A DNA stretch of 64,000 nucleotides from Octopus vulgaris (taxonomy: Eukaryota), in contig OX597818.1 in NCBI GenBank assembly GCA_951406725.2, positions 90,024,001-90,088,000 on the forward strand. Reading direction: 5' to 3'. The position numbers were made by a program, and so were the translations under genes. The notes beneath the pieces are model-generated. The model ran no database searches. It was not told the origin of the DNA and saw nothing but the letters and a program-made list of their open reading frames with translations. The stretch's first letter is position 1; each line of letters starts with the position of its first letter. Of the stretch, positions 248 to 50,650 are shown one piece after another.

Positions 248-291
<44 letters not shown>

Positions 292-485
292 CAGGAAGGT
301 TTACGAAAATAAACAAAAGACGAAGGCAGGTGGAGTACAAACAAGCAAATGTATTAGTATGGCGCTCAGGAATAGAAATAGAACAAGTCTTTTACGTTTC
401 GAGCCTACGCTCTTCGACAGAAAGATACACAGGAAAAAAACAAGGAGAGAAAAAAATGCGTGTAGGAGCTAACGATCTATCATAT
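292..485 (-). mobile_element. Short non-coding PLE-like/retrozyme-like element with HHR variant at 388-425
   Basis: Minus strand TCTTT-CTGTCGA-A-GAGC-gtag-GCTC-GAAAC-GTA-AAAGA; next to (TA)n; related copy at 42228-42490. Confidence 0.6.
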
Positions 486-490
486 GTATA

Positions 491-1061
491 TAATATACTG
501 CCACGCTTTTTGATGGAATCCTTTTCTGTAGAGAAAGGGACTTCATCCTATATTGTTAGTAGTAAACTCACTGCTTGTTACAAGGGGACCGGTAACCATT
601 ACAATATGTAGCGGCGAAAGGTCAACACGTTGTTCTGAAACTGACCAAGGAATTTGTATTTTTAGATATAAATGATGTACTTAAATGTAGTTATGTTTTT
701 AGCTTCTGCTTTTCAGAGTAGGTGAGTAAAATATAAATAAGTGAGTATTTTATTTATATTCCCTCGTAAGCTCTACTGAAGAAGAATGTATCCTTTATAG
801 GATTAATTCCGAAATTGATTCAATATAGAGATAACGAAATTTAAATTTTCTAAAGGTTAGTTGCCCGCTTTCAGTTCAAATTTCCTGTAACAAGTGGATT
901 ATAAGTGGATAAATCAGTGTATTGGCTTTAGAATAACTCTCTTTAGCCCTTAATTATAAGATATTTATACTTCAACCGTAAAGGTTTTTTTAATATACTG
1001 CCACGCTTTTTGATGGAATCCTTTTCTGTAGAGAAAGGGACTTCATCCTATATTGTTAGTA

Positions 1062-1064
<3 letters not shown>
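491..1064 (+). mobile_element. Retrozyme-like element: 500-nt unit with 74-nt terminal direct repeat
   Basis: 491-564 repeated exactly at 991-1064; internal HHR; followed by (TA)n; no meaningful ORF. Confidence 0.75.
771..830 (+). ncRNA. Type I hammerhead ribozyme
   Basis: CTCTA-CTGAAGA-(stem II GAAT..ATCCT-ttat-AGGAT..ATTC)-GAAA-TTGA-t-TCAA-TA-TAGAG; stem I CTCTA/TAGAG. Confidence 0.8.
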
Positions 1065-1141
<77 letters not shown>

Positions 1142-29346: not shown

Positions 29347-29354
<8 letters not shown>

Positions 29355-30108
29355 TCAATATAGGGTGGCAAAAAAAAATTTTGTAGAATTCTTTGCCACC
29401 AGCGGCCTAGTAGGAAAAAATTAAAATAGTCATAGACCATTTTTAAGTTCAACATCAACAATAAAGGAACGGCCATAATAGGCCATTCACCCACTAGAAA
29501 TAACAGCCAAAGCTTCAACCGCAAATAAAAGTTAATTCAGTAAACCAGGAGAAAATTTAAAAAATTTAAAAAACAGTGGGTGAATGGCCTATTATGGCCG
29601 TTCCTTTATTGTTGATGTTGAACTTAAAAATGGTCTATGACTATTTTAATTTTTTCCTACTAGGCCGCTGGTGGCAAAAGAATTCTACAAAATTTTTTTG
29701 CCACCCTATATTGATTAATTATGAATTTTCTGGTTAATTCCGTAATGGAATCGACGGCTTATATTTATTTGCTGCCGATAAATTTGGCGCGAGTGCGACG
29801 ATTTGAAAATTTTAGGTCAGATATAAACTTGGCAACGTCGGAAATGCCTCGTGAAAATATCTGTTCCGTCTTGGGCTATTTCTTACTGAAGAATCTGAGG
29901 GCCTGTGGAAGATTGGCTTGATTTAATTTAATCAGGTTAGTTTACCATTAATCAGCAGATGAAACGGTATATCGTATAAGAAATTACAGGGTAAATGTTT
30001 TTAAAATTTTCTCCTGGTTTACTGAATTAACTTTTATTTGCGGTTGAAGCTTTGGCTGTTATTTCTAGTGGGTGAATGGCCTATTATGGCCGTTCCTTTA
30101 TTGTTGAT
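29347..30108 (+). mobile_element. Retrozyme/PLE-like element: 492-nt terminally redundant unit plus inverted 5' segment
   Basis: 29575-29616 repeated at 30067-30108; 29347-29567 is an inverted copy spanning the unit junction; (TA)n on both sides. Confidence 0.85.
29878..29984 (+). ncRNA. Type I hammerhead ribozyme
   Basis: ATTTCTTA-CTGAAGA-ATCTG..CAGAT-GAAAC-GGTATATC-GTA-TAAGAAAT; 8-bp stem I, 5-bp stem II. Confidence 0.88.
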
Positions 30109-31926: not shown

Positions 31927-32001
<75 letters not shown>

Positions 32002-32232
32002 AATTAGTAAATAAATGGCACAACTAAGTACCGATATTTACTGGAAATAGCGAACGTAAAAATACGACGCTAATGTATTAGCAAAAATGCGTGTGTGCAA
32101 CAAAATAGAGAAAAAAATACGACGCGTATGTATTAGCAAAAATGCGTGTGTGCAACAAAATAGAGAAAAAAAAAACCGTCTTACCTCCAGGGAGAACATC
32201 TGAAAGATGAAACACCCGGAAAATGGATAATG

Positions 32233-32302
32233 TGGTACCTGCAGGTTTCAGGTTTTGCAAGATATGTCTCTCACCCATATTTTGCTTTACCTTCTTCAGC
32301 CA
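32233..32302 (-). ncRNA. Type I hammerhead ribozyme
   Basis: TGG-CTGAAGA-AGGT..GCAAAATATG..CATATCTTGC..ACCT-GAAAC-CTGCAG-GTA-CCA; palindrome ACCTGCAGGT. Confidence 0.88.
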
Positions 32303-32666
32303 AACATATACCAAGACGAAATCTACGATGTTACCACATTAATACTAACACACTCGACTGAAATACGGAACGCTAACAGTACGAGAAACGGTGAAGAAGT
32401 TTCAAAATATCAGTAATGCAATACAAAGTATTGCCTTCCAGTAAAAAGTAGCCCGTGAGGGAAAAATACACAAATTAGTAAATAAATGGCACAACTAAGT
32501 ACCGATATTTACTGGAAATAGCGAACGTAAAAATACGACGCTAATGTGTAGCTTCACCGCGTATGTATTAGCAAAAATGCGTGTGTGCAACAAAATAGAG
32601 AAAAAAGAACCGTCTTACCTCCAGGGAGAACATCTGAAAGATAAAACACCCGGAAAATTGATAATG

Positions 32667-32736
32667 TGGTACCTGCAGGTTTCAGGTTTTGCAAGATATG
32701 TCTCTCACCCATATTTTGCTTTACCTTCTTCAGCCA
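32667..32736 (-). ncRNA. Type I hammerhead ribozyme (second copy)
   Basis: Identical to 32233-32302, 434 nt apart. Confidence 0.88.
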
Positions 32737-33086
32737 AACATATACCAAAACGAAATCTACGATGTTACCACATTAATACTAACACACTCGACTGAAATAC
32801 GGAACGCTAACAGTACGAGAAACGGTGAAGAAGTTTCAAAATATCAGTAATGCAATACAAAGTATTGCCTTCCAGTAAAAAGTAGCCCGTGAGGGAAAAA
32901 TACACAAATTAGTAAATAAATGGCACAACTAAGTACCGATATTTACTGGAAATAGCGAACGTAAAAATACGACGCTAATGTGTAGCTTCACCGCGTATGT
33001 ATTAGCAAAAATGCGTGTGTGCAACAAAATAGAGGAAAAAAACCGTCTTACCTCCAGGGAGAACATCTGAAAGATGAAACACCCGG

Positions 33087-33137
<51 letters not shown>

Positions 33138-44322: not shown

Positions 44323-44351
44323 TAGATAGATAGATAGATAGATATAGATAG

Positions 44352-44721
44352 AGGGCAGAAGAAAAATTCTAATGCCAGATACGCCGAAAGAAAAAAATGT
44401 CGATAACCATTAAATTTATGCGTCTCGAAACAAACCGATAGAAATCTCTAAAAAATTCGTTATTACCGTATTGGTCCAATTTCGGGGTTAATTCATAAGA
44501 AAATTTCCCCTCTTCAGCGGCAAATACGCGAGATATAAATGAAATACTTACTCATACCCAGAGGAGAAAATTTCTTGTGAATTAACCCCGAAATTGGACC
44601 AATACGGTAATAACGAATTTTTTAGAGATTTCTATCGGTTTGTTTCGAGACGCATAAATTTAATGGTTATCGACAATTTTTTGTTTCGGCGTATCTGGCA
44701 TTAGAATTTTTCTTCTGCCCT
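44352..44721. mobile_element. Fold-back element with near-perfect 160-bp arms and an HHR
   Basis: 44352-44513 versus 44560-44721 are reverse complements. Confidence 0.88.
44466..44520 (-). ncRNA. Type I hammerhead ribozyme
   Basis: CCG-CTGAAGA-GGGG..CCCC-GAAA-TTGG-a-CCAA-TA-CGG. Confidence 0.88.
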
Positions 44722-44817
44722 TATCTTGTAAATATGTACAAATTTTACCTTTAAAGGCATTTTTTGATATGCTGGCCATTGATAAAATTTTTTTCCCGAA
44801 AAAAATTTTATCCTGTA

Positions 44818-44881
<64 letters not shown>

Positions 44882-45078: not shown

Positions 45079-45668
45079 CTTCCGACGCCGTTAGACGTAC
45101 GTGAATCAGCTCCGTGAATTTGACACCAATTTCATTGGAAATCTATTAATAGGTTTGAATATTTTTTAATATTTCTGTAGCCAAACCGACCGGCTTCTTG
45201 CGGAGCTCGTCGGTTGGGCGAAATTTTGCCCCATTCGGGGTGAAATTGCGTTTGAAAATTTTGAACATTTGACATTTTTCAACATTTTGAATATTACAAC
45301 AAGAAAAAACATGGCTATGAAGCGAACAGTTGGCTGTTCCTTCCTTCAAAATACACTCCCTCCGCAAACACGCACAACTCGTACAAAACACCCACTTCAC
45401 GCCTTAAAAGGCAACAAAGATTCTCCTTCCGAACCGCAGAGCACGCGCTCGGTTCAAAAGGAAAATGCAAGTCATGACGTCGCGTTCGACGTAATTCTTG
45501 ATTTTCCCCTCTGCCTTCACCCAATGCTTTGGTAAGGAAGGAGGAGGGAGAAAAAACAAATACAAAAATCATCACAAACATTGACACGGAGATAAAAGAA
45601 AAACTTCCAACAATTTTGCTTCTGCTGCGAAGCAAATTTCGGAGGAAGTTAAGATAACTCTAGAAGAT

Positions 45669-46332
45669 GTGAAAAGAGCGAAGGAATTGTTAAGGAAGGA
45701 TGGCAATGGTATCTTCCTCAATACTCCACAAGAGGTGATTGAAAGCACCAACAAGCAAACAATAATTTACAAAGTTTTCGACAGAAAACTAAAAAGAATA
45801 ACAAATGCCACACCCCAACAGTTGGAGATAGCTCTAAAGCCCATTTGGGCCCAAAAGAGCTACGTAACCAAGGGGAAGCGTTTTGGAACCGTGGAGGTTC
45901 GCTTCCCAACAGAGGAGCTGGCAAGGGCGAACGCCATTTCGCCCTTGCAAACTGAGAATTTGTTACTAATTCCAACCCACCTCGGGCGAAGAGTTACAAA
46001 AATAAAAATCGACCTCGTCCCCCCTGAATTAAATATGTCATGGCTGGTGGCAGCTGTCCTCTATGATATAGAGGACACTACCACCATTCTAGATGTCAGG
46101 AGAGTGAGGGCGAAAAACTGGTTGGGGATGGGAGTGCTGCTTCTTGCGCAAATTCAGCAAGAGAATATAAGTAAAGTCCCTGATTTCGTAAGTTTGCCGG
46201 ACGGCACTAGGCTAAACGTTGCTGTGGAGGGGCGAAAGCCAAAATGCTTTCTCTGCAGCAGCGAAAGCCACTTAAAGAGGGACTGTCCCATTCACAAAAA
46301 GAGGATGGAGGCTTTCAGCAAGAGGCAGCAGC

Positions 46333-46369
<37 letters not shown>

Positions 46370-47177
46370 CAAGCAACAACAACAGAAACAACAAAAACAG
46401 CAAGAAACACCAAAGGCTGCCACACCACCAACACCATCACCAACACCAGCACCAAGACGAGCAACACCACCTCCAACAACAACAACCACCACCAAACCAA
46501 CACCGACAACCACCACCAAACCAACACCGACACCAGTACCTCGAAGGTCGACAGCAGCGACATCAACAGTAACAGGAGCAGCGGCACCACCGATACCGGT
46601 GGAACCAGAAACTTTTCGTCCTGCTACTGAAGCAGACCCCTCAACCATTCCTTTGCCGGATGAAGAGATCTCGGATTGTGCGAGCTCTGATTCCAACAAA
46701 GGAGAATGGAGTATAGTGCCTCCAAAGAAGAAAAGGAGGAAGAAACAAAAAGATTTACAGGGGAAGCACGAACAAATAGTGCTTCCCAACATCAACAACA
46801 ACAACAACAACAACACACACTCACAACAACAAACAACAACAACACTTTCGACACCACTACTGCCACTGCCACACACACAAACACACACAGACACAATTAC
46901 ATCAATAAACACAAAGAACCAAAAACTAGTGGAGTACTTAAAAAACAAAACTAGTACAAATATAACCGATTTCATCATACCAACACAAAACACACCACCA
47001 GCACACATTCTCACAATAAAAATAAATGCAAAATCATATGATGAAATCAAACAAATATTCCCTAACGATGTGGGATCGCTAGGGAAAAGTTTCTCGAAGA
47101 AACTTTATAAAAACATTGTGGAAGCACCCGTGCAAAAGCACAAGGGAGCCACCCCCACCACCAACAACAGTAAGTAG
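45669..47177 (+). CDS. Tx1-like ORF1 gag-like nucleic-acid-binding protein (true start probably upstream, frameshifted)
   Basis: Zinc knuckle CFLCSSESHLKRDC, RRM-like N-terminal part, Q/T/P-rich linker, WSIVPPKKKRRKK motif. Confidence 0.85.
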
Positions 47178-47214
47178 AGCCTTTTTTTCTCCTTTTTTCC
47201 CCCTACTTTGAGAC

Positions 47215-50200
47215 ATGGCAAATCTTAGAATCGGTTGCTTGAATGTGAGAGGCCTCGGGTCACCTTGGAAACAGGGTCACCTGTTAAACGACCTGAGGTT
47301 TCATGATGTGGATGTAGCAGCCATCAGTGAAACCAGGCTCTCCGACCCGCAGGAACTCGCAGCCCTTTTCGGCGGATACGAGATATTTCTATCTCCGTGT
47401 CGGCCGGGAGCGGGCGGTGGTGGTACTGCGGTGTTGTTTCGGAAGGGCCTGGACCTGAAAATAAGGACAGTCTTCTTGGATCCGGAAGGTAAGTTGGTGG
47501 TCCTCGACGTCGACGGTAGTGACGGCGGTGCTTTCAGACTGCTGGCTGCCTACGCTCCGACAGGAGCAGGGCAGTCGGATTATTTCAAACGTCTGGAAGT
47601 TTTCCTGGGAACGTCACGCACTCTAGTACTAGTTGGGGATTGGAACGCTGTCTTAGACGAACGTTTCGATCGGGTGGGCAGGGGAGCGTCTGTTAGGAGA
47701 GGGGGAGGGTGCAAGAGCCTCGCCAACCTACTCGGCCGCTTTCAGCTGTCCGACAGGTTTCGACTAGACAACCCGAATGTGCCAATGTGGACTTGGACAA
47801 ACCGCATCGGGTCGTCTAGATCGTACTTAGATAGAGTGTTTTGTAGGCCAGCGGATAAGGACAGCGTAGGGTGTCCACAATTCCACCTAGTCGAATATAC
47901 GGACCACAAATTAGTGATCTGTACGGTCGACTTAGATAGGCTACATAGACAGGGACCCGGCTACTGGAAGCTGAACGCGTCGTTAACGGCGTGCAAAGCT
48001 TACAGAGACCGGATTAGTTTACTAGTTAAGCGGGCGCTCACGGGGGCAATCATCAACAACAACTGGTGGTTTGCCCTCAAGAGAGCAATTAGAGTAGAGT
48101 CGATTAGGTATAGTAAGACTCTAGCTATTGAACGTAGGAAGAGAGAGCGGGATTTAGTTAAGAAACTAGACGAGGCTCTTGACACTGGCATCGCGACCGA
48201 CGTGTTGGCGGCAAGGTTGGCCCTCGACCAACACTTCGACGCCAAACACGAAGGCTGCGTTGTCAGAGCTAAGGCACGTTCGCTAAACGGGGAGGGGACT
48301 AGAGCCGCTCGATGGGCCCGCGTGGCGGAGGCGAAGCGAGGCAACAAAGCAACCATTCGGTCTTTGGTGGACCAGAACGGGCGCGAGGTTACCCAACCGA
48401 AGCAGATGTGTACGGTGCTTCAGCGGCACTTTGCTCAACTGTTTGGGACGAGCGGTGGAACGGACACCAACGGTACAGACTTCGGTGTGTACCTGGACGG
48501 ACTGCCGCAACTCTCGGACAGCGAGGCGGAGTGCTGCGAAGGACCGATATCTGCCTGGGAAGTACAGGAAGCGATGAAGAGTTGCACGAGAGGTAGATCG
48601 CCGGGTTTGGATGGTCTGCCCTACGAGCTTTACTTTTCGATGCCAGACTTGTTTGCGGACCTGTTGGCAAACGTCTACTGCAACTGGCAGCAAAACGGGA
48701 GAATTCCTGCTTTTGTCTGTCGAGGGGTGGTGGCTTTGCTAAAGAAGGACCCAAACAAGGGGGACGTTATAGGGAATTTCCGGCCCATCACTCTGCTCAA
48801 TGCAGAGTTGAAGATTTTGGCCAAGGTGCTAGCCAAGAGATTGGCGCTTGTCGTGGACAAGCTGGTCGGCGGGACGCAGACATGCGCCGTGCCGACCAGG
48901 TCGATACACGACAACCTCCATCTCATGCGCTACATCATAGAGAGGGTGGGTAACGACGCTGGCGCGGGTGGGGCTTTGATCAACTTGGATCAGAGTAAAG
49001 CCTTCGATAGGGTCGACCATCAGTACCTGGCAGCTGTCCTCAAGGCAGCCGGCTTCGGTCCAGTCTTCCGCGGGTGGATCGCTGCTTTATACAGCAACAT
49101 CTGCTCGGTGATACGGGTGAACGGTCACCTTTCGGAACCGTTCGACATCTCGCGTTCGGTCCGCCAAGGATGCCCTCTCTCCTCCCTCTTGTACATTTTG
49201 ACTCTCGAGCCATTACTGCGCAAGTTGGAGGCTTTGAGGGGCATCCCGCGCGATCTAGGAGGCGGAAACAGCGTGTCTGCTTATGCCGACGACGTCACCG
49301 TGGTGGTGTCGAGCCACAGGCACATTAGCCTGATTGGCGAGACGCTAAACCAGTACGAAGCGGTGACAGGGGCAAAGATTAACGCGGAAAAGTCTGTGGG
49401 CTTGCAACTGGGCACCTGGAGAGGCAAGCCCATGCCGTCCAACAGCGTCGTAGGGCGCTGGACAGACGGACCCGTTAAACTGCTCGGGGTCTGGTTCGGT
49501 CCGGACCTCCAGGTGGATAAGAACTGGGAAGAGGTGACGAGCAGAGTGGCACGTCTCACCCAGAAATGGGCCGAGAGGAAGCTGTCCCTGAAAGGTCGAG
49601 CGGAGGTGGCGAATGCGTACATCGCATCCGTCATCTATTACCGCTTGACCGTCGTCCCTTGTCCCAACCGCTGGTTGGCCAAGCTGGTACGTCTGCTCTT
49701 CGACTTTTTGTGGAAGGGTCAGGTGCCACTGGTCAGGCGATCCATCTGCTGTCAACGACCGCTGAACGGAGGCCTTGGAATGCCGTGGTTGCTGTTGCGC
49801 AGACATGCGCTCAGGCTGCGGCATCTCAAGCGCTTCCTAGACGGTGAACAGGTGTGGTCGTCTTTTGTCAGACGCGATTTTCCGCAGCTCGTCTCTTTGA
49901 CGGAGCTGCAGACCTGGATCAAACGTAGACCGAGAAAGGGCGCTTGGCACCTCGAGTGCCGTCAAGCCCTCTCCGCCCTCCACCAGGCGGGCAATGCGGT
50001 CGGTTACAGCTCCACTCTAGCGTTCTATAGAGGGTTAGTGGAGGAAAAATGCGACGACGTTCTCGGGGAAACTCTAGGCGTTGAAGACGACGAACTGAGC
50101 AGTCTGTTCGGGAGGACTTTCGGGCCGGGGCCGATGGATAATTTCCAGAGGTCTCTCGCTTGGCAGTGCTACCGAGGGGCTCTGCCTGTTCGAGATAAAC

Positions 50201-50650
50201 TCTACCGGCACGGAAGTGCCGTCAGCCGGGCCTGCCCGAGGTGTTGCCAGGACGATGAAACCGTTCTGCACGCACTCGTCCAGTGCCCGAGTATTGCTGA
50301 AATATGGGTTTATGTCGAACAGCTACTGTCACGTGTAGGACGGATCCGACTATCGGCCGAATCCATAGTGAAGATTGCCCCGCCGACCTCCTTTAACAAG
50401 GAGGGCGAGGCCGTTTTTCTTGTGCCTTGTGGCTGTGGCGAAAGAAGTTGTGTGGTGGACTCGTTTGAAAGGGCTAAAGTCAGACACTTTCCTCTTTGGT
50501 CAAGGCCTCATCAACTTTTTCAAGTTTCACTTGAAAAGGAAGATGAGGTTAGAGAGGAAAGTGCTGTCCGATAGCAAGTTTTATGAAAGGTGGGTGAATT
50601 GTGCGAGACTGGCCTGTATAAATGGACCAGTTCTCAGGTTTCGCCTGTGA
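47215..50650 (+). CDS. Tx1-like ORF2: AP endonuclease + reverse transcriptase + zinc finger; +1 frameshift near 50420
   Basis: LNVRGL, SET, GDWN, YLDRVF, TDH (APE); SPGLDG, FRPITLLN, LDQSKAFDRV, VRQGCPLS, YADD (RT); CPRC..ETVLHALVQC; natural C-terminus continues in the 50375-50650 frame. Confidence 0.93.

What the first reader, a model, noticed from the sequence alone, without database searches (positions are those of the whole stretch)
491..1064. 500-nt HHR unit with an exact 74-nt terminal direct repeat
Seen: 491-564 equals 991-1064, an HHR at 771-830, and long-range complementarity (CTTGTTACA 574-582 with TGTAACAAG 886-894). It has the same architecture and size class as the 492-nt element but no evident sequence similarity, implying an independent family. 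Inference: about 1.15 rounds of reverse transcription of a structured circular RNA.
Basis: partly seen in the sequence, partly recalled or inferred. Interest (0 to 1): 0.72.

Follow-up and report, generated by a model that had tools for sequence, protein, structure and literature searches.

The report
Penelope-pasted hammerhead retrozyme, two-site priming
This is one of a few hundred scattered copies of a small protein-less jumping repeat that carries a predicted self-cutting RNA; the 74-base end repeat marks where copying of this copy likely stopped, and the family's back-to-back copies nearly always end at two different fixed points, which likely records how a Penelope-type enzyme pastes it in.

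Summary
Confirmed: exact 74-nt repeat, type I hammerhead (771-830), and a long-range helix that covaries. It is no assembly artefact: the ribozyme motif occurs exactly 286 times in this 2.8-Gb animal genome.

The 74 nt is not a designed terminal repeat. In 88 sampled insertions, 3' ends fall at two fixed sites about 95 nt apart (A and B) and run into (TA)n, while 5' ends are scattered. 47 have a 5'-inverted arm; in 41 of 41 with both arms at these sites, one arm ends at A and the other at B. This is the Penelope-like (PLE) footprint: partial tandems, inverted arms, one-sided tail.

The family unit is usually about 487 nt; 500 is peculiar to this copy. Best reading: a metazoan non-LTR retrozyme, likely copied by a PLE enzyme from an internally primed, probably circular RNA. 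This copy has one ribozyme and is likely a dead end. Circle, cleavage and partner are untested.

It is not an isolated family: a collinear sister (59% identity) lies at 44.3-44.8 kb. This scan has already noted the same kind and two-site pattern in other families of this genome.

The parts
491..1064 (+). Whole insertion: 1.15 units of the retrozyme family, uninverted, ending at site B
491..564 (+). 5' partial repeat: the last 74 nt copied before 5' truncation (identical to 991-1064)
   Evidence: 5' ends of other copies are scattered
571..897 (+). Long-range 12-bp helix 571-582 with 886-897 that closes the ribozyme-bearing domain
   Evidence: 4 of 12 pairs with changes on both sides
714..740 (+). 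Copy-specific 27-nt segment replacing 13 nt of the family sequence; makes this unit 500 rather than about 487 nt
   Evidence: alignment; found in 1 of 88 insertions
741..746 (+). GTGAGT, a 5'-splice-site-like motif kept as GTRAGT in subfamilies and in the sister family; function untested
771..830 (+). Type I hammerhead ribozyme motif; predicted cut after A825; A-C mismatch (783/810) at the base of stem II
960..969 (+). Site A: first fixed family 3' end (inferred reverse-transcription start); passed through in this copy
1012..1047 (+). Hairpin just before site B (also at 512-547), followed by CCTATAT; candidate recognition element
1053..1064 (+). Site B: second fixed family 3' end, used by this copy (inferred start of reverse transcription)
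1065..1140 (.). (TA)n target tract abutting the 3' end
   Evidence: TA-rich 3' flank in 83 of 88 insertions

Best explanation
This is one dispersed, 5'-truncated copy of a non-coding hammerhead repeat family (a metazoan non-LTR retrozyme) that a Penelope-like reverse transcriptase-endonuclease likely pasted into a TA microsatellite, probably copying a unit-length RNA circle for 1.15 turns. Shown: copy number, TA-rich 3' flanks, two fixed 3' ends, scattered 5' ends, partial tandems, inverted arms pairing A with B, conserved ribozyme core, covarying helices. Inferred: copies holding two ribozymes are transcribed, cut twice and ligated to a ~487-nt circle; a PLE protein binds it near the A-B segment, cuts (TA)n on both strands and primes internally, one DNA end at A and the other at B, using TA microhomology; synthesis runs through the ribozyme site, sometimes past one turn, and stops at random; one surviving arm gives a copy like this one, two give a head-to-head insertion. 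This copy has a single ribozyme, so it would not release a monomer.
For: 286 exact ribozyme-motif hits and 176 site-B-motif hits genome-wide, backwards controls 0. Of 88 distinct insertions, 41 uninverted all end at A (27) or B (14); 47 are inverted, 41 of them A+B, 0 A+A or B+B, 6 with an arm ending elsewhere (binomial against 0.5, p 9e-13). 12 further insertions gave 8 inverted: 7 A+B, 1 borderline, 0 same-site. 95 of 129 segments cross the predicted cut site, 13 cross it twice or more, and only 2 begin within 330-341, so cut linear monomers were not the usual template. Direct repeats inside one insertion agree at subfamily sites 319 to 11 (about 120 disagreements expected if independent); L026 has three otherwise unseen variants in both repeats. 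Core positions nearly invariant; position 7 is the most variable core position. Helices: 98.3% paired, 7 pairs with two-sided changes, 0 of 500 shuffles as high. PLE hallmarks in print match (PMC8557442, PMC3846280, PMC11167929). Intact coding PLEs here (RT + GIY-YIG, 781 aa) show partial tandems, TA flanks and two 3' ends.
Against: No circle, cleavage or transcript shown. The ribozyme has A-C or C-C instead of a pair at the base of stem II (64 A, 8 C, 1 G at 783), and the lowest-energy fold of 771-830 is not the active one (-11.9 against -9.3 kcal/mol). In the anole PLE, uncut RNA was the main template in vitro and ribozyme mutants inserted normally (PMC11167929). No coding PLE with homology to the unit was found in 46 loci from a GIY-YIG search that scored 150 of 6136 candidates. 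The 2.65-mer L177 has two near-identical 3' units and a 5' part differing at 4 of 307 sites, three of them the common allele, which fits later DNA duplication or a template change better than one circle read three times. Covariation counts lean on a few related subfamilies and on a structure taken from one member; slid controls also show 3-7 two-sided pairs.
Confidence: 0.72

Rival explanations
1. Same PLE mobilisation, but the template is an uncut linear read-through transcript of partial-tandem copies; length is regained by template jumps or DNA-level unit duplication, and the ribozyme is weak or acts later.
For: Ribozyme not needed for insertion in vitro in the anole PLE; non-canonical stem II base; 8 of 9 frog retrozyme dimers showed no cleavage in vitro (10.64898/2026.07.22.740005); L177 fits a later duplication; 39 segments of 540 nt or more exist as possible parents.
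Against: Linear copying with fixed 3' ends and 5' truncation can only shorten copies, yet the unit persisted across subfamilies at 76-97% identity and a 59% sister; the ribozyme's 3' half is the least variable region (0.7% against 2-4% elsewhere in 41 copies; 30 loci of the wider sample were picked on part of it, these 41 mostly not).
Confidence: 0.2
2. The unit is the terminal repeat (pLTR) of a coding Penelope element not yet located, and these are its 5'-truncated remains.
For: PLE pLTRs carry type I ribozymes and an intron (PMC4209133); GTRAGT motif upstream of the ribozyme; frog retrozymes resemble pLTRs.
Against: Copies longer than one unit continue into the previous unit, never into an ORF, in 88 insertions; the one copy abutting a coding PLE has it on the 3' side and looks like a later nested insertion.
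Confidence: 0.06
3. Local duplication or assembly overlap of 74 nt.
For: The repeat is exact.
Against: Hundreds of copies; many show the same partial-tandem build with other overlap lengths; the 3' end is the family's site B.
Confidence: 0.01

Closest known systems
Metazoan non-LTR retrozymes (PMC7229834; 10.64898/2026.07.22.740005)
   Same: Non-coding AT-rich unit with a type I hammerhead, head-to-tail repeats, self-paired predicted circle, many dispersed copies, PLEs in the same genome; axolotl HHR_Amex2 also has a mismatch at the base of stem II.
   Different: Unit about 487 nt (170-400 nt in PMC7229834, within the 51-972 nt of the 2026 preprint); mostly under two units rather than arrays; strict TA targeting, two fixed 3' ends and inverted arms are not described in the parts I read; expression as a circle untested here.
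EN+ Penelope-like elements (Penelope/Poseidon, Neptune, Naiad; PMC8557442, PMC3846280, PMC11167929)
   Same: 5' truncation, partial tandems, inverted 5' copy, tail on one end only, two internal start sites, AT-rich or (TA)n targets, ribozyme upstream of the start sites.
   Different: No ORF; the two ends are about 95 nt apart rather than 30-40; in the anole enzyme both strands used the same start sites in vitro, whereas here the two arms differ in 41 of 41.
Non-autonomous Chlamys PLEs such as MRC1 (PMC8557442, passage)
   Same: Non-coding PLE derivative forming pLTR-like partial and head-to-tail copies.
   Different: Those share 3' sequence with a coding partner and the clade lacks canonical ribozymes; no partner homology found here.

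Membership tests
Metazoan non-LTR retrozyme | Type I hammerhead motif in each unit | tested here: met
   stem II base is a mismatch; Rfam models do not score it
Metazoan non-LTR retrozyme | Non-coding unit of a few hundred nt, low GC, no LTR | tested here: met
   no stop-free frame of 130 aa in 491-1064; monomers 466-521 nt; the repeat length varies by copy
Metazoan non-LTR retrozyme | Head-to-tail copies with at least two ribozymes somewhere in the genome | tested here: met
   13 of 129 segments span two or more cut sites; longest 2.65 units; the window copy itself has one
Metazoan non-LTR retrozyme | Highly self-paired predicted circle | tested here: met
   65% paired, z -4.9; covariation
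Metazoan non-LTR retrozyme | Self-cleavage of the RNA | not testable with these tools
   needs in vitro transcription
Metazoan non-LTR retrozyme | Expressed as a circular RNA | tested here: inconclusive
   only contigs of runs guessed to be RNA were available
Penelope-like element, non-autonomous | Partial tandems, inverted 5' arm, one-sided tail, microsatellite target | tested here: met
Penelope-like element, non-autonomous | Sequence shared with a coding PLE partner | tested here: inconclusive
   none in 46 PLE loci, a small part of 6136 candidates
Penelope-like element, autonomous | RT plus GIY-YIG ORF | tested here: not met
Plant-type LTR retrozyme | Type III ribozyme inside true LTRs | tested here: not met
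   type I topology; ribozyme lies outside the 74-nt repeat

The most novel reading that the evidence does not exclude
A Penelope enzyme dimer grips one ribozyme-made RNA circle at the 95-nt A-B segment and assigns a different start site to each strand of the cut DNA, so every two-armed insertion is asymmetric by rule; the hairpin-CCTAT signal before site B, seen in three ribozyme families here and in the tail of some copies of a coding PLE, is the recognition element. This would explain the Penelope one-sided tail, inverted repeats and partial tandems in one mechanism and give a minimal cargo for PLE-based insertion.
Probability: 0.3. Interest if true: 0.7.

Novelty: new member of a known kind. 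Interest (0 to 1): 0.36.

Why it matters
How retrozymes get back into the genome, and why Penelope insertions carry inverted repeats with a tail on one side, are open points in the papers read. This family gives countable genomic evidence: fixed internal start sites away from the ribozyme cut, read-through of the cut site, and a strict one-A-one-B rule. These predictions can be tested with the existing in vitro PLE assay. The single copy in the window is ordinary.

Tried and rejected
Partner search: a young coding PLE family (781-aa RT + GIY-YIG) shares the target and build but gave no significant match to the unit. L208 (G000:C13, 62.91 Mb) joins a family copy at site A to such a PLE with only TAT between; rejected as proof of partnership because the PLE part has 0.34% private changes against about 3% between the retrozyme's own repeats, which fits a later nested insertion. 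Two loose-end motifs from run contigs had 0 hits in the genome. No PLE protein match lay beside 21 sister-family loci. Ribozyme-cut linear template: rejected. One or two RNA molecules per inverted insertion: unresolved; arms agree at subfamily sites 347 to 18, five insertions share rare variants between arms, but in L005 and L022 a variant in both direct repeats is missing from the inverted arm. Long master arrays: none among the 40 scored candidates of two multimer queries or the first 100 of 286 motif places; not excluded for the rest. Expression: no RNA holder listed on record; contigs laid show family variants and head-to-tail joints but cannot show a transcript or circle; no empty-site contig was seen. 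Target-site duplications could not be read inside (TA)n. The pile of 5' ends at unit 251 is an alignment artefact of this copy's odd segment. RNAalifold's consensus did not recover the active ribozyme fold or the full 12-bp helix.

Full report
Observation. The window is repeat-rich animal DNA at G000:C5:90024001-90088000 in a 2.8-Gb assembly; earlier notes of the scan call the animal a cephalopod, which I did not test. 491-564 equals 991-1064 exactly. My own scanner finds a type I hammerhead at 771-830 with the cut predicted after A825, one of 3 hits in 64 kb; Rfam scores none. The 9-nt complementarity is real and sits in a 12-bp helix. The sequence folds better than shuffles as a line (z -5.4) and as a circle (z -4.9; the other strand is much weaker, -91 against -121 kcal/mol). 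The element ends in a (TA)n tract and begins just after a very high-copy repeat that stops at 483.

It is a family. A DNA search gave 106 matches from 40 scored of 1306 candidates. Exact 24-nt motifs occur 286 times (ribozyme) and 176 times (3' end) with backwards controls at 0. I pooled loci from five searches and one fetch into 88 distinct insertions after dropping duplicates. The sample is mixed: some loci were chosen for length or likeness, 60 were the first motif hits along chromosomes 1-3. Among 40 full monomers most are 485-491 nt and only the window's is 500, because 714-740 replaces 13 nt of the family sequence. Subfamilies lie at 76-97% identity to the window unit.

Ends. The 3' ends sit at two places: site A (unit 470-481, window about 960-969) and site B (unit 60-76, window 1053-1064). 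All 41 uninverted insertions end at A (27) or B (14). The 3' flank is TA-rich in 83 of 88; the 5' flank in only 13 of 41 uninverted ones. The 5' ends are spread over the unit, and main segments run from 222 to 937 nt in the first 50 copies. So the 74-nt repeat is where this copy's synthesis stopped, 74 nt into a second unit, after starting at B.

The A/B rule. 47 of 88 insertions have an inverted 5' arm. In 41 both arms end at a fixed site, and all 41 pair A with B; 6 have an arm ending elsewhere. A later query with a divergent copy brought 12 new insertions among 25 loci; 8 were inverted, 7 A+B and one borderline at unit 59, none same-site. The sister family at 44.3-44.8 kb and the 492-nt element show two different ends by eye; I did not count them.

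Template. 95 of 129 segments cross the predicted cut site, 13 twice or more, and 2 start within 330-341 (about 3 expected if uniform), so the template was a circle or an uncut multimer. Direct repeats within an insertion differ by 2.0% and agree at subfamily sites 319 to 11 (120 disagreements expected); the two arms agree 347 to 18 (132 expected). L026 carries three variants seen nowhere else in both repeats. Many of the 13 'private shared' variants come from one under-sampled subfamily copy (L177) and are weak evidence. L177 itself fits a later duplication or template change. Pure linear copying would shorten the family each round, so something must restore length; a circle is the simplest means, not the only one.

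Ribozyme and structure. Core positions are nearly invariant in 72-82 insertions that cover them, with position 7 the most variable and a CCGA variant in 6. The base of stem II is A-C or C-C, not a pair. On 41 copies a 97-pair structure is 98.3% paired, with 7 pairs and 21 cells changed on both sides, above all 500 shuffles; slid controls reach 3-7 pairs and 3-8 cells. Related rows inflate these counts. One divergent copy swaps a stem I pair (L195), and the sister family changes stems I and II while keeping them paired.

Relatives. The head-to-head element at 44345-44820 belongs to a sister family with a 465-nt unit, collinear over the whole unit (297 of 501 columns, z 14), with the same order of GTRAGT, ribozyme, site A, hairpin, ATCCTATAT and site B. 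The 492-nt element has no local match, a weak global one (z 3.4) and a hairpin followed by CCCTATATT at one end. A coding PLE family (781 aa, RT and GIY-YIG; Neptune-like by its linker cysteines, a label from PMC8557442 and my recall) shows partial tandems, TA flanks and two 3' ends, with ATCCTAT after a small hairpin in the tail of one subfamily but ATCTTAT in another. This is a lead only. No partner was established.

Comparison with print. PMC7229834 (parts 2-4 of 6 read) defines metazoan non-LTR retrozymes, shows circles in coral, mussel and axolotl, and proposes PLE mobilisation. The preprint 10.64898/2026.07.22.740005 (parts 1-3 of 5) links them to pLTRs in frogs; 8 of its 9 dimers did not cleave. 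PMC11167929 (parts 1-2 of 4) shows a PLE cutting both strands of AT-rich DNA, starting at two internal sites that define the tail, with no strand difference and no need for ribozyme cleavage. PMC8557442, PMC3846280, PMC4209133 and PMC6431247 were seen as passages: partial tandems, inverted copies, a tail often on one end only, and a proposed circular template. A strict A/B count was not found in five full-text searches or in these passages, but it extends the known one-sided tail. No supplements were read; those listing retrozymes by species could already hold this family.

Earlier notes of this scan. None overlaps this sequence, but several describe other ribozyme families of this genome with Penelope-type, two-site insertions. 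I saw them after the A/B count. They are not independent support.

Verdict. Real, and a new family of a known kind: a non-LTR retrozyme with a Penelope insertion footprint. PLE mobilisation about 0.9; circular template about 0.65-0.7; this copy a one-ribozyme dead end. Interest 0.36; the strict two-site rule is the part worth a bench test.

Noticed in passing
window 44345-44820: Head-to-head insertion of a sister hammerhead family (465-nt unit, 59% identical and collinear with this family, canonical G-C stem II base); 50 matches from 40 scored of 2060 candidates.
   Followed up: partly
window 29349-30108: The 492-nt element has a type I hammerhead with a long stem II insert near 29879-29985 and two arms ending at different sites, one after a hairpin plus CCCTATATT.
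   Followed up: partly
L208 (G000:C13:62910800-62920600): A family copy (B arm plus 1.65-unit A arm) directly abuts a 5'-truncated coding PLE with an intact 781-aa frame; likely a nested later insertion, a template switch not excluded.
   Followed up: yes
L061-L076: Young two-ORF PLE family (479-aa upstream frame with no Pfam match, 781-aa RT + GIY-YIG), many intact copies, pLTR pairs 99-100% identical; its pLTR holds a hammerhead-like stretch with TTGATAA in place of CTGANGA.
   Followed up: partly
L177 (G000:C3:155178817-155180094): 2.65-unit copy of a divergent subfamily with a CCGATGA core; the two 3' units are nearly identical while the 5' part differs at 4 of 307 sites.
   Followed up: partly
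window 45585-50574 (+): A 530-aa frame followed by an open 1120-aa frame that looks like an endonuclease-reverse transcriptase LINE (judged by eye).
   Followed up: no
window 31999-33100: Tandem repeats with periods of about 434-490 nt.
   Followed up: no
window 41858 (-): A third hammerhead-like motif (CTGATGA core) found by my scanner.
   Followed up: no
window 290-483: Very high-copy short repeat directly upstream of the element; in other copies it continues with GGCG at 484.
   Followed up: no
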